Assembly: GCA_023205875.1 (NCBI GenBank)
Contig: CP060765.1
Location: 248,001-312,000 of the forward strand
Origin: Chloropicon primus
Lineage: Eukaryota
DNA: 64,000 bases
Direction: 5' to 3'
The translations under genes were made by a program, and so were the position numbers. This document shows, piece after piece, positions 7,235 to 61,875 of this stretch. Below the pieces are notes generated by a model. It had not been told where the DNA came from. It saw nothing but the letters and a program-made list of their open reading frames with translations, and did not search any database. Numbering within the stretch: position 1 is the stretch's first letter; each line of letters begins with the position of its first letter.

Positions 7235-7330
7235 TCTCCCTCCTCACCCCGTGGGTCATTCCCTTCGAGCGAGGTGTCGTTCGAAAGATCACGAAACGAT
7301 GATTCCCGCAACAACCCTCCCCCTCTGTCT
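7235..7330 (-). promoter_or_regulatory. Oriented upstream element copy (core 7277-7288), 5' of PSRP3
   Basis: Minus strand gagggggagggttg...tcgtttcgtgatctttcgaacgacacctcgctcgaaggg. Confidence 0.7.
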
Positions 7331-7514
7331 CTCTGCCGTCCTCGACCTTCGCTTCGTCCGCAAACTCACCTTCCTTTGCTCGACCCTCGTCGGCCGCTTT
7401 TTCCCGTGTTTTTGGATAAGGCGCTGGTGGTCACAAATCAATCGAGGAGGACATCGTAATCCTCGGGCAAAGGGTGAGGGTGTTTGGTAAGAGATTGGAG
7501 GACGAGAGCGAGTT

Positions 7515-7600
7515 CCGGGGCGAAGGCTACCGCAATCGATGTCATCCTTGCCTCGTGATCTTTCCAAAGATGGCTTCCTCGAAAGAAATGGTGCCCTGAA
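7515..7600 (+). promoter_or_regulatory. Oriented upstream element copy (core 7559-7570), 5' of GATase gene
   Basis: ggggcgaagg...cctcgtgatctttccaaagatggcttcctcgaaagaaatggtgccctg. Confidence 0.7.
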
Positions 7601-7706
7601 GACTGCAGGAGGGAATCGAAACCGAAACGTCTCAGCAAGGCGTTGGAGGTGAGTTCGCGTTGAAGTGGAGGAAGGACGTGGTTGTGCTCGCTTTTGACCC
7701 CAGGGG

Positions 7707-8597
7707 ATGGACAGGAGAAGCGCTTGCTCGAGAGGAGGGCTCTTCGCAGCTCGATCGAGTTCGTCCTCATCGCGGGGAGGAGGAATGCGGCAGAATCGCC
7801 TCGGGGCCAGGTCCACGACGGTCATGATGGCGGGGGCTGACGGGAGGAGGAAGTACGCGATACTTGTCACGGGGGAACCTCTTCCCGAGGTGATGGACAA
7901 GCACGGCGACTTTGAGAAGCGTTTCAAGCGTTTGCTCGCTGAGGATGGCGCGGAGGAGAGCTGGGACGCTTTCAAGGTCTTTCGGGGCGAGAGGTGCGTC
8001 TCTTTGGGCGACTACGACGGCGTGGTTGTGACGGGGTCGAAGTTTGATGCGCACGGGCAGGACGCTTGGATCGCAGACCTCATGGCAGACCTCAGGGCCT
8101 GCCACGAGAGGCGTCAGAGGGTTCTGGGGATCTGCTTCGGCCACCAGGTCCTCGCGCGGAGCCTGGGTGGGAAGGTCGAAAGGGCACAGAAGTGGTCATT
8201 GGGGGCGAACAAGATCGCGTTTGATGCGGAGAAAGTCGGTGAATCCTGTGGGAGGCTCGCGGGAGGCGCCCTTGACGACGGGATCGGGGTGGTCCTCAGG
8301 ATCCACCAGATCCACCAAGATGAGGTCAGCGTGCTGCCTCCAGATGCAACAGCAATCGCGAGCTCCCCCGAGTGCGAGAACGAGGCCTTCGTGATCGGAA
8401 GTCACATCTTTTGCGTCCAGGGTCACCCCGAGTTCGACGACAAGATGGTGGCCGATATGCTCGTCCTGAAGAGAGAGAACGGCTTGGACGGCAGCGTGGT
8501 CGAGGAGGGCTTCGCCCAGCTCAAAGCGAATTCCGTCGACGAGCTCACTTATTCCAAGTGGAGCAGGCTCTGCAGAGCGTTCCTGAAGAGCGAGTAG
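7707..8597 (+). CDS. Class I glutamine amidotransferase-like protein (gamma-glutamyl peptidase-like)
   Basis: YDGVVVTGS, LGICFGHQ (catalytic Cys) and QGHPEF (His-Glu) motifs. Confidence 0.9.
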   Translation: MDRRSACSRGGLFAARSSSSSSRGGGMRQNRLGARSTTVMMAGADGRRKYAILVTGEPLPEVMDKHGDFEKRFKRLLAEDGAEESWDAFKVFRGERCVSLGDYDGVVVTGSKFDAHGQDAWIADLMADLRACHERRQRVLGICFGHQVLARSLGGKVERAQKWSLGANKIAFDAEKVGESCGRLAGGALDDGIGVVLRIHQIHQDEVSVLPPDATAIASSPECENEAFVIGSHIFCVQGHPEFDDKMVADMLVLKRENGLDGSVVEEGFAQLKANSVDELTYSKWSRLCRAFLKSE

Positions 8598-8708
8598 CGA
8601 GCGAAGGGTCGGGCGGTGGGGCCCTCGGCTTCCCGTGGTTGTGTATGGCAAACAAAAGTTTGTTTAATATATACTCCATTTATTTCACCCCACAGCAAGC
8701 AGTAAAGT

Positions 8709-10499: not shown

Positions 10500-10805
10500 G
10501 GAATTATATGGCTTTCGCGGGCGAATGGGCTCACGAGACTCACTCCTTGCGCAGGCTTTACCTTGGGAGTGACCCATCCTATCGCATCCCATCGCATCCC
10601 AGCCATCTTGCTTCAAGCTTTTCACTGGAGGGGGAGGGACTTTGGGTTCGATAGACCAAACTTTTTTGAGTTGCTTTGAATTCATTGGCTTTCGCGGGCG
10701 AATTGTGTGTTCCAACAAACAACCGAGTGGCTTGGCTCACACACCGCCTTACCCTTGGCAGGAGTCGCATCGGCATCACCTTTGCGTGCTTGTTGCCAAG
10801 TGATA
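10500..10805. repeat. Diverged tandem duplication, ~177-190 bp period
   Basis: tggctttcgcgggcgaat at 10509 and 10686; ttacc(c)ttgg and cttg.t..caag blocks recur at similar offsets. Confidence 0.65.
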
Positions 10806-21957: not shown

Positions 21958-23982
21958 TTACTCCTTCTTGCTTAACCGCCACAAGTCCTTGAAGAGGTCG
22001 TGCCACACGAGGTCGTGGCAGGACTTGACGCTCTGGTGGTTCATGCAAGCCTTCCTGAAGTTCCGCAGCTGCCTGCTCTGGTCGCTGGTCAGCTCGATCA
22101 TGTCCACCGCGGCATCCTCGCCGGAGTTCGCCCTCATCTTGTTCATCAGAACGCAATCCACGAGGTACTGTAGCCAGAACACATTGTTCCGAGGGTGGAA
22201 CTCGGCCCAGCTTCCCTCGCCCTTGTCCCCCTCGATGTTCTTGAGCATCTTCCTGTACGTCTCCGCCTGGATGTCACCCTTTGGGCCCTTGAAGAGCCAC
22301 TCGTCGAGGGAAAGGTCGCAGAACGCAACAAAGTCGTCGTCCGCAGTTTGGTTTGCTTCCCCACTCCCCGGATCCCTCGCCTTGGCCTCGAGCCTTGAGA
22401 GCGTGAAGTCGATGATTTGGACCTGCAAGCCGCTCGTGTCGACCTGTATAGGGACGCCCCTCAGCACGTAACGAGTCTTGTGAGAGTCGTCCACGGGGCT
22501 GAGGGAGTTTCCGTTGGACTCTCTGAGAGCCCTCGAGGACAGAGAGGCCGACCTCGGCATTCTCTTCAGAAGGATGTTACCCCAGTGGAGATCCCTGTGC
22601 TCGAATTTGAGCTCCTCCTCCGCCACGGCAAGTCCCATGGTCACCTGCATCAGCATGCTCCTGATCTCCTCGAAACTTCGGAACCTGAAAGACTCCAGGT
22701 CCTCGCCACCGTCGTTGTACACGAAAACGATGTAGAGCTGATCCTCCAAGAAGGTCCCGACGTGGTCGTTTTCCGAGGTGTGGATCTCGTCCCAGGCCTC
22801 CCAGGCCTCCAGCAGGCACGCGGCGTACTTGCCTCTGCAAACAGAGATGCCGTGGGTCTCGATGAAAGTCTTGCAAGAGTTCTGGGTGCCCCCGGATTCC
22901 CTTAGCCTCTTCAGGCAGTTGTGGATGACGACCTCGGCGTAGAGCTCTCCGCTCGTCTTTTGCTTCTCTCCGTTGACGAGCAAGTCGCCATCGATGGGAA
23001 CGACCTTGAGGACCAAGTTGTTGTTCAGCTTGAAAGCCTCCCCAAAGGTTCCCTCGCCAACCTTTCGGACGGAAGCGTCGCACGCCGAGGGAGAGGTCAT
23101 TCGCGCAAGGAACTCGTCGAGGCTTGGGATGCCCCCCTCGCCGGCCCCCTTGGTCAGCTGGCCGCACTCGACCAGGAGCTCGCCCAGGTCGCTTCCAGGG
23201 TCCGGCAGGTCGCCTCCCTCCTCGTCGATCTTCAGGTTGTCCATGACGCCGTGGAGGGAGTCCAGGAGCCCTTCGGCTCCCTCCTCCCCCCTTTCCTCGA
23301 TGGTCCCCATGTCGTTCGTCTCCTGCTGCACGTCTCCTCCCTCCTCGAGCACGTCCTCGACGAGCGTATCAAACTTTGTGCTCAGCCTCAGCACGGACCC
23401 GTTCGAAAACCTGGCGCCGTACCCTTGCACGCTGTCCCTCCTGATGACGACCGAGGACCTCCTGTTCGAAGCCCTCCTGGAGCTGTACGAGAAGTCCCCG
23501 CCGAGGTTGGCCTCCAAAACCGCGTTCTTTGCTGGCTCGGGCGACTCCTCGACCAGCTCGTACGCGTCGACGTCACAGAAATACGACTTCATGTCCTGCA
23601 GGTACTGCGAGTAAGCCTTCTGCTTCTTCTCCTCCGCGTTCGAGGGCATCGCACGCCTGCTGTATGCCCCCTTGGACGCCGACTTCTTCTTCCTCGACCC
23701 CCCTTTCTTCTCCTTCGCGGCCTCGTGAGTCATCACCCCAGAGGAAGAGTAACTCAGCATCCGTCCTATCCAGCTCGTCCTCCTGTCACCGCCACCATCC
23801 GCCACGATCGCCCTCTTCCCTCTCGTACCCTTCCCGACCGAATCCACCTTCACTGGCATCGCATTCTCCTTGTCCAACGCCTCGGCGTCATCCTCAGTCG
23901 TCGCGAGGGCCTCGTATCCGTTGTGCTTTCCCACCTTTCCCCTCGAGCGACGCCTCCTCACGTACGTCAGTATCTCCGCCAT
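21958..23982 (-). CDS. Haspin kinase
   Basis: KVGEGTFGEAF, FEHRDLHWGNIL, IIDFTLSR, LF.G..GD.Q.ETYR.M, W..F.P.NNVFWLQYL haspin signatures. Confidence 0.93.
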   Translation of the reverse strand: MAEILTYVRRRRSRGKVGKHNGYEALATTEDDAEALDKENAMPVKVDSVGKGTRGKRAIVADGGGDRRTSWIGRMLSYSSSGVMTHEAAKEKKGGSRKKKSASKGAYSRRAMPSNAEEKKQKAYSQYLQDMKSYFCDVDAYELVEESPEPAKNAVLEANLGGDFSYSSRRASNRRSSVVIRRDSVQGYGARFSNGSVLRLSTKFDTLVEDVLEEGGDVQQETNDMGTIEERGEEGAEGLLDSLHGVMDNLKIDEEGGDLPDPGSDLGELLVECGQLTKGAGEGGIPSLDEFLARMTSPSACDASVRKVGEGTFGEAFKLNNNLVLKVVPIDGDLLVNGEKQKTSGELYAEVVIHNCLKRLRESGGTQNSCKTFIETHGISVCRGKYAACLLEAWEAWDEIHTSENDHVGTFLEDQLYIVFVYNDGGEDLESFRFRSFEEIRSMLMQVTMGLAVAEEELKFEHRDLHWGNILLKRMPRSASLSSRALRESNGNSLSPVDDSHKTRYVLRGVPIQVDTSGLQVQIIDFTLSRLEAKARDPGSGEANQTADDDFVAFCDLSLDEWLFKGPKGDIQAETYRKMLKNIEGDKGEGSWAEFHPRNNVFWLQYLVDCVLMNKMRANSGEDAAVDMIELTSDQSRQLRNFRKACMNHQSVKSCHDLVWHDLFKDLWRLSKKE

Positions 23983-24504
23983 CGTCCCAAAGTCCTGATC
24001 AATCGACTCGCGGTGCCTCTGCTTCCTTCCAAGAACCTCCTCGCCCTCGAACCTCCTCGCTTCTCTCGTCCTATGCCCACTCCGTCACACCTCCACGGCT
24101 ACGCTCGAATCCCTTCACTCCGTCGTATCTCCCTCGTCCTTGAGCGAAATCGATCAAGTAAGGGGTCAAACGAATGATCACAAAATATTCTATAATAATC
24201 TCAAGACGAAAACGTCTACCTTTGTCGTCGTTCACTTCAATAATGCGCGACAAAGCCGCGCCCTTCCGTCTCCTCCGCACGCGCAGCCTCTGGATCTGTC
24301 ACCCAAAAAAAACACAAAAAAAAACGAATACCTACATAAGAGTGTACCTAGGTCAGACACTCAAATAACGATCTCAGAAAAGTACGTTCATCCCGTGGAC
24401 AAAGGAAGGCGCAGTGACCAAGAGGTTCCCTCCCCAAGAGGACGATTGGGTTTGGGATCGAGAGTTCGGTCAGTGGACACGGTGATGGTTGATATGGTGC
24501 AAGA

Positions 24505-24552
24505 GTTTGGCTCGTGATCTTTCCAAAGAGTCCTTACTCGTTGGATTTGGCC
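24505..24552 (+). promoter_or_regulatory. Oriented upstream element copy (core 24518-24529), 5' of CHR gene
   Basis: ggctcgtgatctttccaaagagtccttactcgttggatttggcc. Confidence 0.7.
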
Positions 24553-24589
24553 TTGATTTGGATAGACAAAAGGTTGGACGACTCTGGGG

Positions 24590-25957
24590 ATGGAAGGAAG
24601 TGAGCTCCTGCAGAAGCGAGAGGACAGGGGACTCCTGGAGGGCGGCGATGGGAACGGCGGGATTTACGCGCAGGTGTCGTATCTGACGATCATGAGGGAT
24701 TTCTTCGCATTGGGGTGGTTGTCCTTTGGCGGTCCGGTGGCCCACATCGCGACCTTCGAGCAAGTCTTCGTCCAGAGGAAGGCTTGGATGTCTTCCTACG
24801 TCTTCACGGAGTTCCTCGCCCTCGGCCAGTGCATAACCGGGCCCACGGCGTGCCAGCTGTCCTTTGCGATTGGAGTGGTGAAGAAGGGCGTTCGGGGGGG
24901 TCTCCTGAGCGGCTCCATGTTCTTGCTCCCGGGGTTTCTCCTGCTGTCCATCATTGGGGCTACCAGTGGAGAGGCCTTCCTCAAGCCCTCTCCCCTGATG
25001 CAGGCGCTCGTCGCGGGGCTTACCTCGGTGGCCATCGCGTTGGTCGCAGGGGCGGCGAAGGCGCTCGGGTCGAAGATATGCGACGACAAGATCACCATTT
25101 GCATCTGCGCGGTCTCCGCGGCCACGGCCTTGTACTGGAAGGGGTCCTTCGTGATGCCTCTGGTGATGGGCGTGGGCGGTGTCGTGACCATCGCGGCGTA
25201 CAGGAACAAGCCTCCCGAGGTTCCAGGCAAGTCTGAGGAGGGGGGAATCAATTCTCTCGGCCTGGGAACCAAGGGTGGCGGCATTCTTCTGGGCGTTTGG
25301 GTCGCTGTGCTGGTAGCCCTTCTCGTCCTCAAATTCATGGAGAAGGGAAACCAAACCTACCCACCCCTTTCGTGGTTCTCGACGTTTTACATGGCTGGGT
25401 CTCTCATCTTTGGCGGGGCGCCAGTTCTCATCCCACTCCTGCTCGACAAGATGACGGCGCCCGGAACCTGCGCCGACTCTCAAGACGACTGCCGGCCGTG
25501 GATGACCGAGGACCAGTTCTACGCTGGCCTGGCCGCGGCGCAGTCAATGCCCGGGCCCATGTTCAACTTCTCTGCGTACTTGGGGGCCGTCATCGCAATG
25601 AACGCCGGGTTTGGAAGCTTTTTCGGCACGCTCGTGTGCTGGGTGGGCTTGCTAGCACCTGGAATCATGCTGATCTTCAGCGTCCTTCCCTTTTGGGGCA
25701 AGTTCAGGACTGTTCCTCTGTACAAGCGAGCACTTCCTGGAATCAACAGCGCTGCGGTTGGTCTCATAGTCACTGCCGTCTTCAAGATGACGTTCCAGGC
25801 GCACGAAAACAGTCCGTTCCCCCAAGCCTCGTCTGCGATCGGTGTCCTGGCGTTCACGGCCGTGTCGTACCTGAAACTTCCCGCGCCCTTGGCCGTGATC
25901 GCGGGAGGCTGCTTGGGCATGATCGCCCACGCAGTGCAACGTCACGAAGGTGCGTAA
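24590..25957 (+). CDS. Long-chain chromate ion transporter (CHR family)
   Basis: LGWLSFGGPVAHIA and GSLIFGG..V.IPLL...GLAAAQSMPGPMFNFSAYLG: two homologous CHR halves. Confidence 0.92.
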   Translation: MEGSELLQKREDRGLLEGGDGNGGIYAQVSYLTIMRDFFALGWLSFGGPVAHIATFEQVFVQRKAWMSSYVFTEFLALGQCITGPTACQLSFAIGVVKKGVRGGLLSGSMFLLPGFLLLSIIGATSGEAFLKPSPLMQALVAGLTSVAIALVAGAAKALGSKICDDKITICICAVSAATALYWKGSFVMPLVMGVGGVVTIAAYRNKPPEVPGKSEEGGINSLGLGTKGGGILLGVWVAVLVALLVLKFMEKGNQTYPPLSWFSTFYMAGSLIFGGAPVLIPLLLDKMTAPGTCADSQDDCRPWMTEDQFYAGLAAAQSMPGPMFNFSAYLGAVIAMNAGFGSFFGTLVCWVGLLAPGIMLIFSVLPFWGKFRTVPLYKRALPGINSAAVGLIVTAVFKMTFQAHENSPFPQASSAIGVLAFTAVSYLKLPAPLAVIAGGCLGMIAHAVQRHEGA

Positions 25958-26054
25958 GCCATTGTAAGCACATCCACTACCACCATTCATCCATCACACT
26001 CCTCCCTCTCTCCCTCTCCTTCCCACCACCAATCCCCATCATCACCAAGGATTG

Positions 26055-26118
26055 TTCCATCCTCCTCATCACAGCACCATTCTTATCAAGTGAGGGCTCT
26101 TTGGAAAGAGCAAGAGAG
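26055..26118 (-). promoter_or_regulatory. Orphan, CpG-decayed copy of upstream element (core 26098-26109)
   Basis: Minus strand ctcttgctctttccaaagagccctcacttgataagaatggtgctgtgatgagg; no minus-strand gene downstream. Confidence 0.55.
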
Positions 26119-26254
26119 CAAGAGACAACGCATCCATCCTCCTCCCTCTCTCCCTCTCTCCCTCTCCCCTTCCTTCCACCATCACCACCATCACCACCAG
26201 GGAGGAGAGCTGGCTGGCTGCTTCAAAGTCTGCAAGTGACAGATCGATCAATCG

Positions 26255-27373: not shown

Positions 27374-27484
27374 CACCAGGGGGGAAGGTGTGGGCGTGTG
27401 AAGCAGATGTAAATAAGAAGTAACTATGAATATCCATATGAGTACAAAGCTGTATATTATGGTACAGCAAAATAACAGATATTA

Positions 27485-32791: not shown

Positions 32792-33014
32792 GCCCTCTCC
32801 CTTCCTCTCTCTGCCCCCTCTCCCTTCTCCCTTCTGTCCTCCAGCACCGAGTGCGCCCCCGTCCCTTCAAAGAGAACCTCCTGAAAACCTTCCGTTACGA
32901 AGCGCTGCAAGGAATGCGATAGGTCTGCCACGCCGTCACCATGTCCTTCCCCTCTTCACAGTTCTGTGACCCTGGCCAAGCAAAGGATGCAAAGTTTTTG
33001 TTCCAAACAAACGA

Positions 33015-33062
33015 CTGGAAGGGCCAAACACCGTCAAGTCGGGTACCTTTCGAAAGACAATC
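33015..33062 (-). promoter_or_regulatory. Oriented upstream element copy (core 33046-33057), 5' of CDPK
   Basis: Minus strand tgtctttcgaaaggtacccgacttgacggtgtttggccc. Confidence 0.5.
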
Positions 33063-33311
33063 GAACGAGGGATCCAAAGATCCCAGCTTTGTGGCGGTGC
33101 GCTCCCTCCCCTTCCTTCCCTTGGAGCTTCTTTGCAAGCAAGTGGTTCTCTGACCTTGGTCTCAAGAGCTCAAAAACTGAGAGATTGAAAAAATCAATTC
33201 CCTCAAAAGAGGAGAGAGGTCTCGAGGCCCTCGACGCTAGAGCAAGCTTTCGAGGAGGAGGAGGGACGAAGGGCGAGGCTGGAGCGAGGGATCGAGGGTA
33301 CTAGACGAAAG

Positions 33312-33385
33312 TACGTCTCACGGTCTTTCCGTCGACGGGTCGCTTGCCCGTTTTGCGTTCCAGGGGACCGGTGAAGGGATTGAGA
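33312..33385 (+). promoter_or_regulatory. Oriented upstream element copy (core 33324-33335), 5' of thioredoxin gene
   Basis: cgtctcacggtctttccgtcgacgggtcgcttgcccg...ggtgaagggattgag. Confidence 0.55.
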
Positions 33386-33420
33386 AGGTCGGGGACGAGG
33401 GAGAGCGAGAGGGGGAAGGG

Positions 33421-35204: not shown

Positions 35205-35529
35205 TCCCAACCTCCACTGGATGCTTCCAGCTTCGTTTTCCACGCCTTCGATTCTCGTTCCAGTGGAAGACAAACCAAGCCAAGCATCAATCGAAACGTC
35301 GTGAGGCGGAGAGCCTTCGATCGCCGACGCCTTTCACCGCGTCCCTTGCGCCGTCCTCCTCGTCCTCCTCGTCGTCGTCCTCGTCGTCCTCGTCGTCGTC
35401 GTCGTCGTCGTCGTCGTTTACTTTTGTGAAACCAACCGGAGGCGAAGAGAGGTGAGCCGGAGTTCTCTTTTTTTTTCTCGACGGTACGAGAAAGGTCGCT
35501 GCTGAGACGGAAGGAGAGGAAAGAGGTTC

Positions 35530-35575
35530 GATTCCTCGTCTCCCCATCTTTCCAAAGACACCTCGCTTGACGGGA
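35530..35575 (+). promoter_or_regulatory. Oriented upstream element copy (core 35547-35558), 5' of carboxypeptidase gene
   Basis: cctcgtctccccatctttccaaagacacctcgcttgacggg. Confidence 0.6.
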
Positions 35576-35601
35576 TGAGCGACTAAAGGACGATGTTTCT
35601 T

Positions 35602-35633
<32 letters not shown>

Positions 35634-41268: not shown

Positions 41269-41779
41269 CTTGGGGATAATGTCTTTCAAAGCATAAACAA
41301 ACATTGTTCTATACAAGACCTTCCTAAATTCTACCACTAACATTATTCAATAACATTAATCACGTGTTATATGTAATGTCTATAATAGAAATATGTATTG
41401 ACTTGAAACAAAATGTTTATATTGATGATTGAGTGACGTTTTTCCTGGAGACTTCTTCGGGCGCGTCGCAACAACGTTTTCTACTGCTAGAGCGTGGTGC
41501 TAATATCTTAGATAGAATGCTGAATTTTGTATTCGGTTTTAAAGCTACGTCAATCAAGTAAGTTCGATCCCTACGATGGGCACGCGTTTTTCTTTTTGTT
41601 TTTGAATTTCAAAATATCTGGTCGGGTACCCTGGGTTGCAAAGAGGAGGAATTGGACAATTCTTGGGGGAGACCGGAATCATCAGCGTCATCAAGGGGCG
41701 TCGACCAAGGTAGGTGCTTTGAACGCGTAATGGTTGAGCAGAGGATCTCAAGCGCGGTAGTGGCCTACGCAGGCGGATG

Positions 41780-41825
41780 CTTCGTCTTGTGATCTTTCCA
41801 ACGACCTCTCGCTTGCCCGAGATGG
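41780..41825 (+). promoter_or_regulatory. Oriented upstream element copy (core 41793-41804), 5' of HD-like gene
   Basis: ttcgtcttgtgatctttccaacgacctctcgcttgcccgaga. Confidence 0.65.
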
Positions 41826-42194
41826 CGAACGTGGGACCAGGTTGCGACGCGGGTTTCGAGTATGCTTGCTGACCCTCCTTTGCTTTTTTTTTGTGTCCGT
41901 TCATGGGATGATTGGCAGGGCGGAGGGAAGGAGCGACCCCTAAGAGGTGCGCCGGGGAGGTCGCAACGTCGACGCGGAGGGTTTCGCCGAGGACCGCGCA
42001 CACCGTTGCGTTACGTCGCGATTGGACGACCTGGGACCCTGACACCTTTGCAACACTAGGAGACCGAGGCCAAAGCGCAGACCATCAGATCATCATCAAT
42101 AACAACAACAACAGCTTCGCACAGGCAGTCTACGTGAGCATGATCCCGTGCGCGTGAGATATACGTCCTGCGCAACGGGAGCAGCGGAGAGGAT

Positions 42195-46501: not shown

Positions 46502-46519
46502 CCCTCTCTCCCTCTCTCT

Positions 46520-46592
46520 GAATCCTCAAATCCTCACCAGAGCTCCGCTCTCTTCGAGCGACGGCTCTTTCGAAAGAGGAAGAGACGACCTT
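46520..46592 (-). promoter_or_regulatory. Oriented upstream element copy (core 46566-46577), 5' of UBP14
   Basis: Minus strand tcgtctcttcctctttcgaaagagccgtcgctcgaagagagcggagctctggtgaggatttgagg. Confidence 0.7.
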
Positions 46593-46764
46593 GGCGATTG
46601 TTCCGCTCAATAACACCGCCAACGCCGCAAACCTCGACCCCGCAACCTAATCACCGTCCTCTCGCGTCCCTCCACCTCCCGAGCGATCGCGATTGATGAT
46701 CATTTGATTTGACCGTTCAAACGAACGAGCGACAGAAGGGGATCGATCGTTGGCGATCGCGATC

Positions 46765-46800
<36 letters not shown>

Positions 46801-47243: not shown

Positions 47244-50200
47244 ATGAGTAGCGCGGTTCTGTCGCCACTCGGGGCCCACAATGGGCAGCGGAGGCTGAAG
47301 ACGCTCAAAGAGTTACAGGCCAAGGACAAGAGAACCTTGCTGGAGGAGAAGGACCAGGTCGCCGGGAAGACGGCGAGGAGTGCCGGAAACGGGGACAAGG
47401 AGAACGACGGGGCACGAGGTCCTGTCGCTCCCAATGCTGTTGCTATCCAAACCGCCGAGAACTTCGTGACGGCGAAGAGCTTGGAGGAGGCGCTCGAGTC
47501 GATCGATGTGAAGGCGGAAGGAAACCCCGCCGCCACCACCGTGGAGGACAAGGTGGAGGACAAGGTGGAGGGAGGAAGGGCGAGCCGAGGCGCTGGTGAG
47601 GTCTGCGACCAGGTCCTGAGACTCCAAGACGCTTCGGGTGACGTTCCGTACCTTGACTTCGGCGTCGTCGAGCTCGGGGGGAGCAAAACGGTTCTCTTCC
47701 AAGTGCTGAACGACTCCTTCGACAGGCAGAGGCTTCAGCTCGACCGAATGCCCACGGAAAAGGGGTTCGCCCTCACCGAAGGACCCAGCGAGGCGTCTTC
47801 CGGCATGCAGGTGGAACAGGATGAGGACGACTACGACGGGACTTATTACTTTGAGGCCCAGGGGAGGGCCCAAATTGGGGTGAGGTGGAGCCCCACCGAG
47901 CTCGGGACCACCCGGGAGATCATCCACTTCAAGCTGAGAAGCGACAGACAAAGGTTGCAGTGCATCGTTTTCGGAAGGTGCGTCGGAAAGGGCGAGGCCC
48001 TCGAGGCCAAGCACCAGAAGAAGAAGAGGTTCCTCGCCGGATCCGGCAAGAGGCTTGCGCACAACATCCAGAAGACCAAGAAGCACAAGGTTGGGGGCGG
48101 CAAGGAGGGAGCAAAGCAGGCCGTGAGGAGCAGGCCTGGCTTCACCGCCTTCCACACGGATTTGTGGAGGCAGAAGCAAGAGAGGGCTTTCGCCGCCTGG
48201 CTCAACATGGTGTTCCTCGCCCAAATCACTTGCTGCGCCGTGAAGAACAGGGTAAGAGCGTGGAACGACTGTCAGTTTGACGCAAAGGTGCAAAACAAGC
48301 TTTGGGACTACTACACGAAAAACGAGACGCTCAAGAGGGCGATGCTGAATGTCGAGAAGCTCATAGATTCGGGAAAGCTTGCTCTCACGGAGAAGGGATC
48401 CTCCCTCTTCACCGATCTAAGGATCAAGAAGCAGGCCGTGAGCGCCATCATGTCGTACAATTCCTTCTGGCTCAAGCAGGGCTTGCAAGTCATACTCGGA
48501 GCGCAGATGCCGATGACGGAAGATTATACCGACGCTCAGCTACGAGAGCTTGTCCTGAATTTTCTGATAGAGGACCAGACGGCGGCCAAGAGGCTCTCCA
48601 CGGGGGGGAGCCAGGATGGAAAGCTCAAGTCGGGGTACACGAAAGCTAGGGCCAGGGAGTTTCTGAAGAAGTTTTTGTTGATGGTTAAACTCTTGGACCA
48701 GCTGATGATGGAGGAGGACACGTACGATATGCCGCTCCTGTTTAGGGGCAAGGGGAAGGTGAAGTCTTCCCAGAGCATGGTACAGAGCGTGATTGGCGAG
48801 AGTTTGCACGGGGAGGGCAACGTCTTGAGGCACCTCAAATTCCATGGGTATGCGTTGTCCTACGAGCAGGCCCCTTTGCTAGAATACAACTTCAAGATAA
48901 ACAACTTGGCAGTAGACTTGAGGGATGGAGTACGATTGAGCAAGCTAGTGGATTACATGAATGACAAGAGGGAGGACCTGATCTCAAAGGCTAAAATCTC
49001 ATCGAAGTCCAAGGCAGCGAGGATGTCAAACACAGAGAAAGTCTTTGCTCAGATGAAGAAGTTGGGGATTAGCTTGAACGGAGTTCTGTCAAGGTTTGGG
49101 TTGTTGGATCTCAAGCCCAAGGACATCGTTGAGGGTGACCAGGAACTGACATTGCAGTTTCTTTGGAGGGTGATGAGAGACTGGCAGATTCCTCACCTCA
49201 TCAAGGCGCCCTCGCTGGAAGTTGAGATCGACCGGATAAGTGACGGGAAAAAAATTGAGGATTCCTACTTTGATAGAGATGAGTCTCTCGCAGCCCACGC
49301 TGGCGAACGTGTCATCAACTTGCTGTTGAAGTGGGCCCAAACCATATGTGCAGGGCATGGCTTGAAAATCAGGAACTTCACTTCTTCTTTTGCGGACGGG
49401 CATGCACTGTGTCTTATTGTCAACCGCTACGCCCCGGAGCTCTTGAGTCTTGATAGCGTGCAAAGGGTGAGTGCACAAGGCGATGATGTCTCAAGGAACG
49501 CCCCGAAGTCAGAGAGGGAAATCGAGCAAGTCAGGTCGAATTTCACGGTCATGAATGAATGCTTGAGCCACCTCGGTGGCGTACCGAGGATGCTTTCATT
49601 TTCTGATTTTGATTCGTATGGCCCAGATGAGATTGCGGTGATATCATTTTTGGCTTTCCTTGCATCTCGCATGATGAAGCTGTCCAAGGAGGACAGGTCG
49701 GCTCTGGTTATCCAAAGAAAATGGAGAGACTCGAAGGTGCCCCCACAAAAGCCTCTTGAGACGTTGAAGTTGTGGATCAAGAGTGCCCAAGTCATTGAGA
49801 GAGGATGGAAGGCTTACTTGGATCGGAAGTTCTCTTCCGCTGAATGGCTCGAGAAGCTGGAAGCCGCTACAAAGATACAAAGGGCTTACAGGACTATGAC
49901 TGTAGTCAGGGGTGCGAGAAAGCAAGTAGCGCAGAAAATAGCGGATGTCACGAGGATTCAGGCAGTGTGGAGAATGAGGAGCATCAGGACCGAGCATTTC
50001 CAGATGCAAAGAAGTGCTCAGACAATACAAGCACAGTTCCGGGCGTGGAGTGCAAGAAAGCACTTCAGAGATTCATTCCTTATACCAAGGATTCTATATT
50101 CTGGACTTGTACACAAGAAAGCGCTTGAGCAACATCGTGCAGATGAAAAGAAAAACCTGTCTGCGGTACTCATTCAAGCACATTTCCGCATGATGATTCA

Positions 50201-53200
50201 AAAGAGGCAAAGGAAAGACGCCTTGAATGCCATTGCGCTCATCCAGAAGCACATGAGACGCGAAATTGTTTACCGCCAGATGCGATCACTCCACAGTTCG
50301 GCTGTGCGAATACAAAGCACTTTCAGAAGCTACATCATTAGGAAGCAGGACCGGCATGCACAGAGCGCTGCGGTGAAGATTCAAGCGTCTTTCAGGGCCC
50401 ACAGGCAGATGATGCAGTTCAAGAGGGACATGGCTGGTGTAGTGAAGGCCCAGAGCATGATCCGTACTTGGCTCGTGCAGCAATCTATCAAGCAGCAAGG
50501 GGAGGCTGCTGTTTGTGTGCAGAAGGCGTACAGGACCTACATCATTAGGAAGCAGTACCAGCATGCACAGAGCGCTGCCGTGAAGATTCAAGCGTCTTTC
50601 AGGGCCCACAGGCAGATGATGCAGTTCAAGAGGGACATGGCTGGTGTAGTGAAGGCCCAGAGCATGGTCCGTACTTGGCTCGTGCAGCAATCTATCAAGC
50701 AGCAAGGGGAGGCTGCTGTTTGTGTGCAGAAGGCGTACAGGACCTACATCATTAGGAAGCAGTACCAGCATGCACAGAGCGCTGCCGTGAAGATTCAAGC
50801 GTCTTTCAGGGCCCACAGGCAGATGATGCAGTTCAAGAGGACATGGCTGGTGTAGTGAAGGCCCAGAGCATGATCCGTACTTGGCTCGTGCAGCAATCCA
50901 TCAAGCAGCAAGGGAGGCTGCTGTTTGTGTGCAGAAGGCGTACAGGACCTACATCATTAGGAAGCAGTACCAGCATGCACAGAGCACTGCCGTGAAGATT
51001 CAAGCGTCTTTCAGGGCCCACAGGCAGATGATGCAGTTCAAGAGGGACATGGCTGGTGTAGTGAAGGCCCAGAGCATGGTCCGTACTTGGCTCGTGCAGC
51101 AATCCATCAAGCAGCAAGGGAGGCTGCTTTGATGATCCAATCTACCTACAAGTGTTTTGTCGCTAAGAAGCTTCTTGGTCAGCACAAGGCCGCTGTTTGT
51201 GTGCAGAAGGCGTACAGGACCTACATCATTAGGAAGCAGTACCAGCATGCACAGAGCGCTGCCGTGAAGATTCAAGCGTCTTTCAGGGCCCACAGGCAGA
51301 TGATGCAGTTCAAGAGGGACATGGCTGGTGTAGTGAAGGCCCAGAGCATGGTCCGTACTTGGCTCGTGCAGCAATCTATCAAGCAGCAAGGGGAGGCTGC
51401 TGTTTGTGTGCAGAAGGCGTACAGGACCTACATCATTAGGAAGCAGTACCAGCATGCACAGAGCGCTGCCGTGAAGATTCAAGCGTCTTTCAGGGCCCAC
51501 AGGCAGATGATGCAGTTCAAGAGGGACATGGCTGGTGTAGTGAAGGCCCAGAGCATGATCCGTACTTGGCTCGTGCAGCAATCCATCAAGCAGCAAGGGG
51601 AGGCTGCTGTTTGTGTGCAGAAGGCGTACAGGACCTACATCATTAGGAAGCAGTACCAGCATGCACAGAGCACTGCCGTGAAGATTCAAGCGTCTTTCAG
51701 GGCCCCCAGGCAGATGATGCAGTTCAAGAGGGACATGGCTGGTGTAGTGAAGGCCCAGAGCATGGTCCGTACTTGGCTCGTGCAGCAATCCATCAAGCAG
51801 CAAGGGGAGGCTGCTTTGATGATCCAATCTACCTACAAGTGTTTTGTCGCTAAGAAGCTTCTTGGTCAGCACAAGGCCGCTGTTTGTGTGCAGAAGGCGT
51901 ACAGGACCTACATCATTAGGAAGCAGTACCAGCATGCACAGAGCGCTGCCGTGAAGATTCAAGCGTCTTTCAGGGCCCACAGGCAGATGATGCAGTTCAA
52001 GAGGGACATGGCTGGTGTAGTGAAGGCCCAGAGCATGGTCCGTACTTGGCTCGTGCAGCAATCTATCAAGCAGCAAGGGGAGGCTGCTGTTTGTGTGCAG
52101 AAGGCGTACAGGACCTACATCATTAGGAAGCAGTACCAGCATGCACAGAGCGCTGCCGTGAAGATTCAAGCGTCTTTCAGGGCCCACAGGCAGATGATGC
52201 AGTTCAAGAGGGACATGGCTGGTGTAGTGAAGGCCCAGAGCATGATCCGTACTTGGCTCGTGCAGCAATCCATCAAGCAGCAAGGGGAGGCTGCTTTGAT
52301 GATCCAATCTACCTACAAGTGTTTTGTCGCTAAGAAGCTTCTTGGTCAGCACAAGGCCGCTGTTTGTGTGCAGAAGGCGTACAGGACCTACATCATTAGG
52401 AAGCAGTACCAGCATGCACAGAGCGCTGCCGTGAAGATTCAAGCGTCTTTCAGGGCCCACAGGCAGATGATGCAGTTCAAGAGGGACATGGCTGGTGTAG
52501 TGAAGGCCCAGAGCATGGTCCGTACTTGGCTCGTGCAGCAATCCATCAAGCAGCAAGGGGAGGCTGCTTTGATGATCCAATCTACCTACAAGTGTTTTGT
52601 CGCTAAGAAGCTTCTTGGTCAGCACAAGGCCGCCGTGCTTATTCAGTCTATCTTCAGGGGGCACTTTGCAAAGAAGATGTTGTCGAGGAAACTTGAGGGT
52701 ATTGTGCTTATTCAAAAGTACTTTAGGGGCCACAAGTGCAAGAAGAGGTATAGACGTTACCAGAAGATGAAGAAGGCGATGGAGGAGTTTGCTAGAGCTG
52801 CCAAGCTTTTTACATTGAAATCAGCAGCTGCAATCAAGATACAGAGCAACTTCAGGAGCTTCACGTGCAGAAAGAAATTCCAAGCCCTGGTTCTGAAAGC
52901 CAAAGCTGCTGTGAGGATTCAGTCTGCTTGGAAATCTCACGAGCAGCAAAAGCGATACAACGCTGTCATGAATGCTCGCAGCGTTCTTAGGAAGTACCTG
53001 CCATTCCTGGTCGACAGATCCCACTTCCTTCGTATGAAGAGAGCATCCATTGCGATCCAGTCGGCTTACAGGAAGCACCACAGCAAAAGGGTCCAGAGTG
53101 CTGGTGTCATTCAAAAGCATATTAGAAGTGTGCTGGCAAGAATTGAAGTTCACAAGAGGGAAAGAAGCATTGCCACAATCCAAGCGCACATGAGATCCTA

Positions 53201-54035
53201 CATGACAAGGCGCTCGAGCAGCAAGGAGCTCAAGTCCATCAGGAGCAGACTCTTTGGTGCTAGCGAGAGGGTAAGGGCAAACCCAAAGCTCAGCATCGGG
53301 TACCAGACATCTGCTGCACTCCGGGGTCTAGTCAAAGCAAAGACTATTCACAGCGCGATCAGCTTGTGCAAGGTTATCAGCTTCAGCACCAGATACTCGT
53401 CGAAGTGCTGCGTGATGGTCTATGAGGACAAAACTGCGATCGCCTCCCTGCTGAGACTCATGAGAGCTTGCAACAGGAGCCAGCCCCACGTTGACTTCCT
53501 CAAGCAGGTGATGCCAGCTCTGCAGAACATCGTCGAATGCGGCAGACCCAACGCCAAGTCCCCAGTGCTGACTGAGGAGCTCGCCGAGGTTCCTGACATT
53601 TTCACGACTCTGAGCGAGCTCTTGCAGATGTTCAGGGGCAACCCTGACATCTTCCAGCCGACCGCCAAGGTCTTGCACGCCCTCGTCAGCTGCGGGAAAG
53701 GGGTTGGGTCCCTGGACGCCTTGAGTGACGAGATGAAGGGAATGAAAAAGAAGCTGGAGGGCATTTCCCAGATTCTGAAGCAGAAGTTGAGGCTGGAGAA
53801 GAAGTACATTGACCACATGGAGAACAAGAAGGGGTCTGATGTGTCCGCTAGAGAGTCGGCAAAGAAGGTGGTGCAAATCACGAAGGATTTGCAGTCGCTG
53901 TACGATATCCTCAACTGCTTCGGCGATGCCCCAGCCGGGGAATACTCTGTGGTCGAGCCACGCAGCGCAAAGAACACCATCGTGAGAAAGGCCTTTATGG
54001 AGACGCAGAACATCCCATCGCTAAACAGGATGTAA
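47244..54035 (+). CDS. ASPM: Abnormal spindle-like microcephaly-associated protein (ASH, 2 CH, many IQ, ARM-like C-terminus); three 1-nt G-run deletions (~50840, ~50913, ~51120) break the frame as given
   Basis: ASH-like LDFG.V..G, QERAFAAWLN, YNSFWLK.GL, INNLAVDLRDGVRL.KL, DIVEGD.ELTL.FLW, LLKW...IRNFTSSFADG, IQxxxR repeats, CNRSQPH. Confidence 0.9.
50330..52633 (+). repeat. Coding tandem array: ten 207-bp units (3 IQ motifs each) interspersed with four 66-bp units
   Basis: gcagatgatgcagttcaagagg at about 50405, 50612, 50819, 51024, 51296, 51503, 51710, 51983, 52190, 52463; ALMIQSTYKCFVAKKLLGQHK unit at about 51128, 51815, 52295, 52568. Confidence 0.95.
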
Positions 54036-56825: not shown

Positions 56826-56919
56826 CGTGATGACGCCAACTCACGCGCGTGCTCTCCTCGCCCTCGTCGCCTTCCTCTCGCTCTCTCCAGGAGTCGAGTC
56901 ACCTTCTCTCTCCCGTTTC

Positions 56920-57165
56920 CCGTCCTCAAATCCTCAAAACCTCGACGAATCCTTCCACAAAGGAGTCAAACGAAAGATAAAGAAATGATCCTTCCGTCTG
57001 TTTGACTCTTATCCTTCTCTTTGTCTTCAAACGCCTCTACGTCGTCGCGAAGCTTCCCTCTTTCCTCCTCCGACAGATGCCCTCAACCTCTTTCGCGTCC
57101 TCAAATCCTCACCACTGCGCCGTTGTTTTCGAGCGAAGGCTCGTTCGAAAGAGAGAGAGACAAGA
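56920..57165 (-). promoter_or_regulatory. Two tandem upstream-element copies 175 bp apart (cores 56966-56977 degenerate, 57141-57152)
   Basis: tcctcaaatcctca at 56923 and 57098; minus strand tctttcgaacgagccttcgctcgaaaac...gtggtgaggatttgagg. Confidence 0.65.
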
Positions 57166-57378
57166 GATCCGCCTGTGCCTCTCTCCACCGTCCCAATGTC
57201 CTCCGTAGTACCTCAAAAGGCCTCGTCTTCGTCGCCGTCGTCGCCTCCCCTTCGCGCTCCTGTAGTTGACCGTTGTAGCTGTCAGTTTTGAAATTTTGAG
57301 GATTTTTGGAAATTTCTCAAAATAAAATTGAATTTCAAATGTGAAGTATCATAACGACTGTCGTACAATAGGGCAAAC

Positions 57379-57655
57379 CACCACCTAAGGTAAGGAGGAG
57401 GACCAAGGGAGGGCGACCAGAGCCAGGGAGGGACACGCCTTGGGGAGTCCGGGGTTTGTTCCATCGAACTGCCACTTTCTCTTGCCACTTTGAGGTTCTG
57501 GGTTATCTTTTCACGAGGCCAAAGGCTTGTCAGGCTCAAGGCCAAGGCCACCACCACCACCACCTAAGGAGGAGGACCAAGGGAGGGAGGGCGACCAGAG
57601 CCAGGGAGGGACACGCCTTGGGGAGTCCGGGGTTTGCTCCATCGGATTGCCCTTT
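57379..57655. repeat. Tandem duplication, 178 bp period, CpG-poor
   Basis: agccagggagggacacgccttggggagtccggggtttg at 57421 and 57599; ccaccacctaagg...ggaggaggaccaagggaggg precedes both. Confidence 0.9.
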
Positions 57656-57775: not shown

Positions 57776-57783
57776 ACACACAC

Positions 57784-57842: not shown

Positions 57843-57867
57843 ACTTTGAGAGGACCACCCGAGCTCG

Positions 57868-59304: not shown

Positions 59305-59396
59305 AACAAAACCGAAAGAAAAAATATTATATGATACAGAATGATACAATATTGATTTTTGTTTGCCAGGCTATCTTACACCTCCTCCTCCTTCCT

Positions 59397-61299
59397 TCAC
59401 AGCTTACTCAAAAGGACCATGGTAAAGAAGAAGAGGGGAATGTACAAGTTGTCCAGGTGAGGCGTGAAGGCTTCCAGGAGACACATCCCAACGCAAAGGG
59501 CGACAAAGGTTGGGGTGCTGCCGATTAGCTGGCCACCGACCATGCGATCCCAAGTCAGCGCAAAGGCCACTGTCCCGAGTATGGCGGCACAAGTGCCCTC
59601 CAGGGTCTTCTTGGATCCTCTGCAGATTGCGAGTCTCCCAAAGTTCTTGCCCACCAAGACGCCCAGAACATCGGCGATGCCGAGGGCAAGAATCCCAGAG
59701 GACAAGAGGAGCAAGTCTGCCTCCTCGGTCTGAGCACGATCGTCGGAAGAAGCTGCGCGTATGTTGAACCAGAACGGCACGGACAACCCCAGCAACAGAG
59801 AAAGGTGGGAGAGGATCAGAGTCCCTGAGTCCCTCGAGTCCGTGAACCTTCCGAAGAAGGAGGTCATCCGTTCCGAGATTGAACTTTCCTTGCATTGTAT
59901 TCTCACAAACTCGCACAGGACCAGGGCGCACAGCACGCTTGCACTGCAAAACCTCAGCAGTGGCACCGCCTGTCCCGCCCCTTCCGCCCCGCCAGACTGT
60001 GCGTGGGTGTGCACGGCCGAGGCAAACACGGCAAGAGCTGCCACATGAAACAGCTTGCGCACCACGATGTTCGCCACGTACCCCCCCGTCGCCACGAGGG
60101 CGATCGCGGGTATCGCGATGCACACCACGCAGAACCAAAACAGGAGGAGGCGTACGTTTGACTCCACGCCGAGCAGGAGCAGGTCTGCCGTGCGAAATGC
60201 CTCCACCAGGCCCAGCATGCCCACGACGTACTGAAGGGCGATCAGGAAGCATATCGCAGCTGCGGTCACGACGCTTCGAAGGTCTTGGTGGTGAGACCCC
60301 GATAGACGCATCACTAGCGCGATGAACATCACCGAAGCGAACAGCAGCTGCCCTTGAACGAGGACTTTCACCCCGCCAGCGCAAGGAGCGGCCGCGCTCG
60401 GTGGCTCCTGATCCTCGAAGAACCAAGGGAAGTGCCAACCCAATTCAAATGGTAGAATTCCGCCCAGGGGCGCCAGAACCCAAGTCACCAGGGTCCAGAA
60501 CCTCGGCGGGGTTCCGGAGCTCCTCGGGCTCGGGTGATCCCAAACGTCCCCGCCCGGGGGGACGAACCACCTCGAGTGCCAGTCCATGAGGCACCACAGG
60601 ACCACGCAGACGCAGCCGTTGGAGATTAGGAGGGCGTCCCCGCTCGCGACTTGAAACCTGCCCTTGGCAAGGAGTCCCAACTCGGAGCAAAAGTAAGCGA
60701 GGGGGATGCAGATGGTTGTGAACCAGGTGTAAGTCTCCTGGAGGTGGTGCAGGTGCCCCAGGGCCTGGGCAACGGATATGAGGCAGGCCGCCTGGATTCC
60801 CGCTGACGCTCCCAACGCTCGCGCATGCTTCCAGTTCGACGCGGCGACGCTCAGGGACACGAAGGTCCCCAGGAGCTCCGGCATCAGCCTCGACCCGTCC
60901 CTCTCCGCATTGGCCCTCGAGGCGCCCGCGAGAGTCGCGAGGGTGAACGTGCCGAGCAGGTGACCCTGCGGGGAGCCCTCCTCGGCATCTATCGCTCCCG
61001 CCAGCGCCGCCGCGCAACCCAGGGAGAGCGTGAGCGAGGTCACCGCGGAAACGTGGACCTGAAGCGAGACAGGGAAGGGGGAGGTGCGCACGCCACGTCA
61101 GTCGAGCTCCTTCGAGGAGCTGAGGAGGAACAAAATAAAAAACGAACGGGCTTCTCACCTCACTTGGTTCTCCGACGACGGCTACGCTCGCCGCTCCGTT
61201 ATAAAAGGAGTACAGGCAGTACGTGGCGTACAGCGTCCCGAGGGCGAGGACGACGCTCTCCCCCCCGGAGGACCTCAAGAACGGAAGGCACTCGCGCAT
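59397..61299 (-). CDS. Dolichol kinase; intron 61059-61158
   Basis: RKLFH, F.DSRDSG.LILSHL.LLLG..VP.W, GI.ALGIAD....VG...G......SKKTLEGT, LEAFT..LDNLYIPL motifs. Confidence 0.9.
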
Positions 61300-61349
61300 C
61301 CCTCCCGAGGGTATCCTCGCCTCTGCCTCTTCCAGTCCCCCAACCCTTT

Positions 61350-61420
61350 CGCGTCCTCAAATCCAAACCACGAAGCCAAATCTTTCGAGCGAGGGCTCTT
61401 TCGAAAGATCGAGAGACGCT
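61350..61420 (-). promoter_or_regulatory. Oriented upstream element copy (core 61397-61408), 5' of dolichol kinase
   Basis: Minus strand cgtctctcgatctttcgaaagagccctcgctcgaaagatttggcttcgtggtttggatttgagg. Confidence 0.72.
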
Positions 61421-61659
61421 TGGTCTCCCTTTTCAACTCACCCTACCTCCCCTCGACCTCCCTCGCCCCCACTCCCTCCTAACCTCCGCCCCCTTCACCA
61501 GCCAAAACGATCGACGATCGCGATCGCCAAAATCACGTGTGCCTGGAGATTCTCTGCCCACCAAGAGCTCTGACGAAGAGGGAAACGTCTTTGCGCCAGT
61601 TTTAGGGACGTAGGGGCGACGCGAGGGGCAAAAAGGCCGGGGTCTTTCGAAAGTACGCT

Positions 61660-61875
61660 TCGATACCTTTCGAACGAGCCCTCGTTCGACCGTTTTCGCG
61701 CCCGGAGTGGTCGAGAGAATCCGCGCGACGACGGGGATTGAAGGTGTGGTCAGGGAGGGGAGGAGGGTTATCTGGAGAGAGAGAGAGCGAGGGAGAGAAG
61801 GTGAGAGGGGGAGGGTTGGGTAGACGGAATCCTTGTCTCGTGATCTTTCGAAAGAGCCCTAGGTCGACCGCTTAG
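61660..61875 (+). promoter_or_regulatory. Two tandem upstream-element copies 178 bp apart (cores 61666-61677, 61844-61855), 5' of ABC gene
   Basis: cctttcgaacgagccctcgttcgaccg and gagggggagggttggg...gtctcgtgatctttcgaaagagccctaggtcgaccg. Confidence 0.7.

What the first reader, a model, noticed from the sequence alone, without database searches (positions are those of the whole stretch)
7235..61875. A conserved, strand-oriented ~50-110 bp element precedes at least 13 of ~28 genes
Seen in sequence: read on the gene's sense strand, a motif of approximate consensus (GAGGGG.AGGG..)...TCGTCTCGTGA-TCTTTC(C/G)AAAGA-GCC.TCGCTCGAAAGA-(A/T)TTGG......GGTGAGGATTTGAGG recurs. Cores are at 7277(-), 7559(+), 20530(-), 20905(+), 21088(+), 24518(+), 33046(-), 33324(+), 35547(+), 41793(+), 46566(-), 56966(-, degenerate), 57141(-), 61397(-), 61666(+) and 61844(+). 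All 16 lie in 5' flanks, with the nearest copy 60-390 bp upstream of the ATG and pointing into the gene. Divergent pairs (PSRP3/GATase, GDT1/21263, CDPK/thioredoxin, dolichol kinase/ABC) carry mirror-image copies. I saw none inside coding sequence or convergent 3' gaps. The 12-bp core is a palindrome when TCTTTCGAAAGA, and its TCTTTC can also pair with a GAAAGA that closes a 28-nt span. The served genes are functionally unrelated, which argues against an ordinary pathway regulon. Inference: it could be a long sequence-encoded core promoter or +1-nucleosome positioning signal, a 5'-UTR RNA structure, or a domesticated or promoter-targeting short repeat. I do not recognise it as a described algal promoter element.
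Basis: partly seen in the sequence, partly recalled or inferred. Interest (0 to 1): 0.92.

Follow-up and report, generated by a model that had tools for sequence, protein, structure and literature searches.

The report
Built-in first-nucleosome seat at algal genes
Most genes in this stretch of a tiny green alga's genome start with the same DNA element of about 145 bases. It has the length and 10-base rhythm of DNA wrapped round one nucleosome, likely fixes where the gene's first nucleosome sits, and is apparently undescribed.

Summary
The element is real and longer than reported. There are 19 strong and 2 weak copies, and 17 of 26 genes carry one in the sense direction. Organism: a Chloropicon alga, not C. 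roscoffensis.

Aligned on the invariant core, copies show a 10.0-10.3-bp AT/GC rhythm from about -80 to +65 and none beyond (p<1e-5 upstream of the core). That is one nucleosome's length, best-fitting dyad near -8. Spliced RNA contigs of two genes contain the element, so it lies in the 5' UTR, and start codons always fall beyond it. Tandem copies are 175-183 bp apart. A 180-184-bp AT periodicity in gene bodies is phased to the element (p 0.0004-0.004), not to the ATG. RNA structure, tRNA/SINE boxes, terminal repeats and target-site duplications were tested and not found.

Best reading (0.7): a DNA-encoded +1-nucleosome positioning element. Unlike the animal versions, seen in aggregate, it has invariant bases recognisable in single copies. 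That suggests a specific reader protein or a repeat origin. No chromatin or start-site data, whole genome or relative's DNA could be tested. The scan's earlier notes held nothing similar.

The parts
7224..7369 (-). element footprint (-81..+65), core T at 7288, before PSRP-3/Ycf65 gene
7478..7623 (+). element footprint, core T at 7559, before GATase gene; divergent partner of 7288, 271 bp apart
20477..20622 (-). element footprint, core T at 20541, in the 5' UTR of GDT1; RNA contigs reach 20649-20660
20824..20969 (+). element footprint, core T at 20905, first of a tandem pair in the 5' UTR of gene 21263; RNA contigs reach 20802-20876
21007..21152 (+). element footprint, core T at 21088, tandem duplicate 183 bp downstream; homology to its twin spans about -80..+72
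24437..24582 (+). element footprint, core T at 24518, before chromate transporter gene
32993..33138 (-). element footprint, core T at 33057, before CDPK gene (most divergent strong copy)
33243..33388 (+). element footprint, core T at 33324, before thioredoxin-domain gene
35234..35379 (-). weak copy, anchor 35298, before a gene that looks like a histidine phosphatase/PGM by eye (ATG about 35203); keeps +4,+5,+6,+11,+12,+17,+21,+23
35466..35611 (+). element footprint, core T at 35547, before M14 carboxypeptidase gene
41712..41857 (+). element footprint, core T at 41793, before unknown gene 42195
46513..46658 (-). element footprint, core T at 46577, before UBP/USP5-type deubiquitinase gene
56913..57058 (-). 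element footprint, core T at 56977, second of a tandem pair (175 bp) before gene 56825
57088..57233 (-). element footprint, core T at 57152, first of that pair
61344..61489 (-). element footprint, core T at 61408, closest to consensus, before gene 61299
61585..61730 (+). element footprint, core T at 61666, first of a tandem pair (178 bp) before ABC transporter gene
61763..61908 (+). element footprint, core T at 61844, second of that pair; ends 12 bp before the ATG
1570..1715 (-). weak copy, anchor 1634, before unknown gene 1380

Best explanation
A DNA element of about 145 bp, with an invariant-base core and a 10-bp AT/GC rhythm, sits at the start of most genes in this window and likely acts as a sequence-encoded seat for the +1 nucleosome.

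Shown: the rhythm runs from about -80 to +65 and stops on both sides; the core is ungapped; the element is transcribed in two genes; start codons lie beyond it; gene-body composition repeats every 180-184 bp in phase with it.

Inferred: (1) a histone octamer wraps the element with its dyad near -8; (2) transcription would start about 20-40 bp before its upstream edge, next to an AT-rich gap of 95-200 bp shared by divergent genes; (3) downstream nucleosomes would be spaced off it; (4) the invariant bases, one to three helical turns downstream of the predicted dyad, are more specific than histones need and are probably read by a protein such as a remodeller or general transcription factor (about even odds); (5) tandem copies likely arose by nucleosome-length duplication.
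For: Rhythm: 16 independent copies give period 10.2 at -80..-20 (p<1e-5), 10.0 at -45..-12 (p=5e-4) and 10.1 at +35..+66 (p=0.005). There is none at -150..-82, +66..+140 or +140..+250 (p 0.19, 0.62, 0.84). The first test, on -112..-12 with limits set before the profile was seen, already gave p<0.001 for WW, with SS in counter-phase. Leave-one-out upstream score peaks at register 0 with side peaks at -10 and +9. Best symmetric fit puts the dyad at -8.

Spacing: tandem copies are 183, 175 and 178 bp apart; divergent cores 258-364 bp. The window's AT power spectrum peaks at 180 bp. On the same coding-side bases of 15 genes, the AT periodicity is phased to the element (p 0.0004-0.004) and not to the ATG (p 0.09-0.25). 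It is carried by third codon positions (p=0.007). Five of 6 local non-coding duplications have offsets of 176-188 bp, and the twin copies align over -80..+72.

Position: spliced contigs cover the element and reach -103 to -119. AT content drops from 0.51-0.59 to 0.33-0.36 at about -110. No ATG falls before +73. TATA-like boxes: 0 of 18.

Constraint: 11 of 45 core columns are at least 18/19 identical, against 0.9 expected from uniform decay. The alignment has no gaps.
Against: No nucleosome map or start-site map exists here, and contigs cannot show starts. Gene-body AT maxima extrapolate to +35..+65, 20-45 bp short of the predicted first-linker centre near +83. The sequence's own best two-fold symmetry is at +14.5, not -8, and a dyad at -18 fits almost as well. 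In the upstream half, 2 of 5 held-out copies show no rhythm; all 5 are positive downstream. The -80 and +66 limits were chosen. Seven of 15 leaders hold upstream ATGs, so some gene models or start sites may differ. Nine of 26 genes have no copy. Only 64 kb was examined, and a rhythm inherited from a common ancestor would also be phase-locked.
Confidence: 0.7

Rival explanations
1. The 45-bp core is the binding site of an abundant sequence-specific, perhaps dimeric, DNA-binding factor in the 5' UTR. It acts as a barrier that phases nucleosomes, like a yeast general regulatory factor (recalled); the element is not itself wrapped as inferred.
For: Invariant columns C2, T4, T5, C6, G11, T21, G23. 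Two-fold symmetry centred at +14.5. Gene-body AT maxima extrapolate onto the downstream half of the element.
Against: A 10-bp rhythm runs 70 bp upstream and 30 bp downstream of the core, in one phase, over one nucleosome length. Tandem copies keep nucleosome-repeat spacing.
Confidence: 0.13
2. The element is a nucleosome-sized short repeat that spread to 5' ends by targeted insertion or gene conversion, and is a relic or passenger. As an origin, rather than a present function, this is compatible with the best explanation (about 0.4).
For: Pairwise identity is more spread than independent columns allow (p=0.001), and two unlinked copies share 18 exact bases in the tail (p=0.003). Positions 22 and 25 are linked (p=0.004). 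The +7..+42 patch of 21088 is closer to 46577 (24 of 36) than to its own twin (18 of 36). Other transcripts match copy 26109 at 88% or more.
Against: No terminal inverted repeats or target-site duplications beyond cross-copy background. No A box in 19 copies; B-box-like hits in 3 of 19 at unrelated places. No indels in the core at about 73% identity to consensus, and strongly uneven column conservation. Strict orientation, and ATGs kept outside it in a streamlined genome.
Confidence: 0.12
3. The element works as RNA: a 5' UTR hairpin or a linear site for an RNA-binding protein that controls translation or stability.
For: It is transcribed and strand-oriented. A 28-nt span can pair in 75% of cells, with one compensatory change.
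Against: Covariation is at shuffle level for all three candidate structures. RNAalifold predicts 0 pairs. Mean folding z is +0.19 and only 4 of 19 copies form the hairpin with P>0.5. Rfam 0 hits. A DNA-helix rhythm and an orphan antisense copy are not explained by RNA.
Confidence: 0.04

Closest known systems
Periodic downstream element (PDE) of human Pol II promoters (PMC7641323; passages read)
   Same: About 150 bp, 10-bp periodic, downstream of the start site, ends abruptly, read as a +1 nucleosome positioning element.
   Different: The PDE is described from base distributions averaged over many promoters aligned on mapped start sites. Here single copies align by invariant bases without any start-site data.
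DNA-encoded N+1 signal in animal promoters lacking core elements (PMC5055345; abstract and passages read)
   Same: WW and SS in counter-phase at 10.3 bp, at TATA-less promoters, proposed to set the start site at a fixed distance.
   Different: Degenerate dinucleotide classes, with no fixed long consensus in the passages read.
Periodic WW at +1/-1 nucleosomes of ubiquitous and germline promoters in C. elegans (PMC7706728; passages read)
   Same: Start site about 20 bp before the +1 edge, 120-140-bp gap, often bidirectional, signal also at -1 nucleosomes, absent from another gene class. The geometry inferred here is close (22-38 bp; 95-200 bp).
   Different: Mainly a TT rhythm; the passages read report no base-invariant 45-bp core, tail module or tandem duplicates.
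Nucleosome-periodic methylation and composition of prasinophyte genomes (PMC12695648 and PMC12633428; passages read; the 2014 and 2015 source papers were not held)
   Same: Compact green algae with regularly phased nucleosomes downstream of start sites.
   Different: Those reports concern linker 6mA and 5mC, not a sequence element; 'Chloropic' does not occur in the main text of PMC12695648. CG periodicity is not significant here.
Satellite monomers with an embedded protein box, such as alpha satellite with the CENP-B box (recalled, no call)
   Same: Nucleosome-sized unit with a sequence-specific box inside.
   Different: Dispersed singly or in pairs at gene starts; the recalled box core matched 0 of 19 copies.

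Membership tests
DNA-encoded +1 nucleosome signal (PDE / N+1 / periodic WW) | 10-bp WW rhythm with SS in counter-phase | tested here: met
   period 10.0-10.3, p<1e-5 upstream of the core
DNA-encoded +1 nucleosome signal (PDE / N+1 / periodic WW) | about 150 bp long with abrupt ends | tested here: met
   signal from about -80 to +65, none outside
DNA-encoded +1 nucleosome signal (PDE / N+1 / periodic WW) | begins 20-50 bp downstream of the transcription start | tested here: inconclusive
   the longest contigs of two genes reach 22-38 bp beyond the edge, but contigs cannot show starts
DNA-encoded +1 nucleosome signal (PDE / N+1 / periodic WW) | a nucleosome occupies it in vivo | not testable with these tools
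   no chromatin data; indirect support from 180-184-bp phasing
DNA-encoded +1 nucleosome signal (PDE / N+1 / periodic WW) | promoters lack a TATA box | tested here: met
   0 of 18 copies have a TATA-like box at -170..-100
DNA-encoded +1 nucleosome signal (PDE / N+1 / periodic WW) | degenerate, seen in aggregate, without invariant bases | tested here: not met
   7 invariant and 4 near-invariant columns in 19 copies; this is what makes it a variant
MITE / non-autonomous DNA transposon | terminal inverted repeats | tested here: not met
   mean longest match 5.2 against 5.0 cross-copy
MITE / non-autonomous DNA transposon | target-site duplication | tested here: not met
   5.6 against 5.5 cross-copy; old copies could have lost them
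tRNA-derived SINE or TFIIIC site | A and B boxes at fixed places (motifs recalled) | tested here: not met
   A box 0 of 19; B box 3 of 19 at unrelated places; no tRNA
Structured 5' UTR RNA | compensatory base changes and a shared fold | tested here: not met
   Rfam 0 hits
3' splice or trans-splice acceptor | invariant AG after the pyrimidine tract, with splicing there | tested here: not met
   A at +10 in 11 of 19; contigs read through unspliced
Satellite with CENP-B-type box (recalled) | long tandem arrays and the box core | tested here: not met
   at most 2 copies in tandem; core 0 of 19

The most novel reading that the evidence does not exclude
Chloropicon has replaced ordinary core promoters at about two-thirds of its genes with one base-specific, nucleosome-sized element, some 5,000 copies by extrapolation. 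It is read by a dedicated protein on the wrapped +1 nucleosome and kept alike by sequence exchange between copies: a dispersed promoter satellite that defines a gene start from downstream.
Probability: 0.3. Interest if true: 0.93.

Novelty: new variant of a known kind. Interest (0 to 1): 0.8.

Why it matters
How much DNA sequence, rather than remodellers, sets the +1 nucleosome and the start site is a long-standing question, and known signals are weak averages. Here one lineage offers a natural, alignable positioning sequence, in thousands of copies if the window is typical. Mutating single columns, or inserting 5 versus 10 bp, would test the question directly. It also explains why a streamlined genome keeps long 5' UTRs. 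It would predict start sites for annotation, and could supply natural positioning sequences and promoter parts for algal engineering.

Tried and rejected
Relatives: pattern scans gave 15 loci in metagenome contigs, 1 and 0 in viral contigs and 3 in prokaryote genomes. Of these 19 loci, 18 could be scored. Seventeen scored -10 or lower outside the search pattern; true copies scored -2 to +43. The other, L014 (+4.5), is a single match in a CT repeat of a eukaryotic contig that looks Bathycoccus-like by eye. All are taken as chance. Whether those collections hold any Chloropicon DNA is unknown, so this says nothing on conservation. A protein-based locus search of viral contigs gave only 2 weak unrelated hits.

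No whole genome is held. RNA contigs were laid on 12 kb only, covering 6 of the 19 strong copies; the chromate transporter had almost no cover, which is no evidence.

CG and GC periodicity phased to the element: not significant. A 10-bp rhythm in the information content itself: not distinct. Depletion of upstream ATGs: 25 sense against 33 antisense, not clear. A 6mA role for the ApT sites at -1, +28 and +47 was considered and is untested.

The scan's earlier notes gave nothing relevant. Three background papers were not held.
Full report
Setting. The window is intron-poor eukaryotic DNA of 56.7% GC with about 26 genes. The closest named relative of its GATase is Chloropicon roscoffensis, at 60% identity, so the organism is another Chloropicon. 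GC and gene density fit C. primus as described in PMC6731263 (57.5% GC, 0.5 genes per kb; passages). The species is inferred, not shown. No whole genome was held. Position +1 is the first T of TCTTTC on the gene's sense strand.

The observation. All 16 copies are present. A profile finds three more strong copies (24177-, 26109-, 46864+) and two weak ones (1634-, 35298-). The 19 strong copies score 30-61 bits; 60 shuffled windows never exceed 18. All 19 avoid gene bodies (p about 3e-11). Eighteen point into a gene and serve 15 of 26 genes, or 17 with the weak copies. One, 26109-, faces the 3' end of a gene and backs onto gene 26255+. MAFFT aligns 100 columns without a gap, with C2, T4, T5, C6, G11, T21 and G23 invariant. 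Eleven of 45 core columns reach 18/19, where uniform decay gives 0.9; without the seed hexamer it is 5 against 0.3. This is selection on particular bases at fixed spacing.

It is inside the transcript. Contigs of four runs were laid on 16500-28500, which holds 6 of the 19 copies. They are spliced at two introns, so they derive from RNA. For GDT1, three runs extend 108, 113 and 119 nt upstream of the core. For gene 21263, contigs extend 103, 76 and 29 nt upstream of the first copy and read through both copies unspliced. Contigs cannot show true starts, so these are lower limits. The haspin contig stops at the core and the chromate transporter is barely covered. Contigs from other loci match copy 26109 in 3 of 4 runs. 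Their loose ends carry the GAGGATTTG-type tail in the same register (+43 onward), so the element occurs in other transcripts too.

It is not an RNA structure. Three candidate pairings show covariation at shuffle level (81, 178 and 156 of 500 shuffles reach it). RNAalifold predicts nothing, single copies fold no better than shuffles (mean z +0.19), and Rfam has no hit. It is not a splice acceptor either.

It has the anatomy of nucleosomal DNA. WW dinucleotides peak near -75, -65, -55, -45, -34, -25, -16, +8, +29, +48 and +61, with SS between them. The core has extra out-of-phase peaks at -12 and +3. The upstream region played no part in choosing copies, yet it gives period 10.0 at p<0.001. In 16 independent copies p is below 1e-5 for -80..-20 and 0.005 for +35..+66, and 0.19-0.84 for three flanking regions (limits chosen). 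The spectrum has one clear peak at 10-10.5 bp. Cross-validated scores peak at register 0 with shoulders one turn away. A symmetric 147-bp template fits best with its dyad at -8, next at -18. The footprint is thus about -81..+65. It starts 22-38 bp after the longest transcript ends and finishes before every ATG (minimum +73).

It is tied to the nucleosome repeat. Tandem copies lie 183, 175 and 178 bp apart and six divergent pairs 258-364 bp apart, which leaves predicted gaps of 95-201 bp. The window's AT content has a power peak at 180 bp. Downstream of the element this oscillation is coherent across 15 genes (period 180-184; p 0.0006-0.007 for four AT measures over ranges to 1,700 bp, of six measures tried), and lives in third codon positions. 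It is lost when the same bases are aligned on the ATG. Five of six local non-coding duplications have offsets of 176-188 bp. Against this reading, the AT maximum extrapolates to +35..+65 rather than to the predicted linker centre near +83, and the core's own symmetry axis is +14.5.

Origin. No terminal repeats, target-site duplications, Pol III boxes or tRNA were found. But the copies are not independent draws from one profile. The tail is nearly all-or-none, two unlinked copies share 18 exact bases, positions 22 and 25 are linked, and one tandem twin has a middle patch closer to distant copies. Descent or sequence exchange among copies is therefore plausible, with selection preserving helical phase.

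Mechanism. I commit at 0.7 to a sequence-encoded +1-nucleosome seat. The rhythm would set rotational and translational position, the start site would follow at a fixed distance upstream, and gene-body arrays would be spaced from it. The invariant bases lie one to three turns downstream of the predicted dyad and are probably read by a protein (even odds; none identified). C. primus encodes TFIID subunits and histone H1 (supplementary table searched by term). Rivals: a barrier factor on the core (0.13), a relic repeat (0.12), an RNA element (0.04).

Comparison and novelty. It works like the human PDE (PMC7641323, passages), the animal N+1 signal (PMC5055345, abstract and passages) and the C. elegans periodic WW signal (PMC7706728, passages), and meets their tested features of rhythm, length and TATA absence. 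It differs in being base-specific and recognisable copy by copy. Seven full-text searches (listings only, apart from the papers named) found no description in Chloropicon or other algae. The C. primus paper's main text has no 'promoter' or 'UTR', nor do the two supplementary PDFs searched; 17 of its 20 files were not searched. It reports 4% non-coding repeats. Extrapolating 19-21 copies per 64 kb gives about 5,000 copies and 4-5% of 17.4 Mb, so the element may have been masked as an unnamed repeat (inference). Most subscription journals, bioRxiv supplements and repeat databases were out of reach. Conservation in relatives could not be tested.

Verdict. A real feature and a new variant of a known kind; interest 0.8. 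If a dedicated reader and concerted spread are confirmed (probability 0.3), it would be a new type of promoter architecture.

Noticed in passing
window 54-425, 1843-2330, 15148-15381, 57377-57655: Local non-coding tandem duplications unrelated to the element have offsets of 187 (99% identical), 184, 188 and 176 bp. This suggests duplication in nucleosome-length steps.
   Followed up: partly
window, -114 to -107 of copies 20541, 20905, 24177, 24518, 35547: A short AGGCK motif sits where the transcript contigs end in 5 of 18 copies, against 0.7 expected. It may be an initiator-like signal; it was picked by eye first.
   Followed up: partly
window 21089: Runs X1 and X3 read A instead of the otherwise invariant C at +2 of the second tandem copy, as if the spare copy tolerates change.
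   Followed up: no
window 25988-26187: The purine-rich upstream part of orphan copy 26109 is repeated 143 bp away, and the copy carries an 8-bp duplication just upstream of its core.
   Followed up: no
window 47244-54035: The ASPM-like gene holds an array of IQ repeats spaced 206-273 bp and is split into two ORFs at 50855/51132: an intron, or a frameshift or assembly slip in the repeat.
   Followed up: no
window 19180-19282: RNA contigs join the convergent LARP1 and GDT1 transcripts, and a 101-nt minus-strand intron spans the end of the GDT1 ORF, so the ORF's stop is not the real one.
   Followed up: no
genes at 2505, 9827, 11098, 14518, 16719, 28357, 40813, 57868: Genes without the element include cNMP-binding, MADS, LARP1, HMG-box and Kelch genes, several with long 5' gaps holding CA or GA microsatellites. 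This may be a second, regulated promoter class.
   Followed up: partly
window 21263-21823: A short two-exon gene (intron 21406-21545) behind the tandem pair has by far the deepest contigs in all 4 runs, though contig depth cannot rank genes; its protein was not searched.
   Followed up: no
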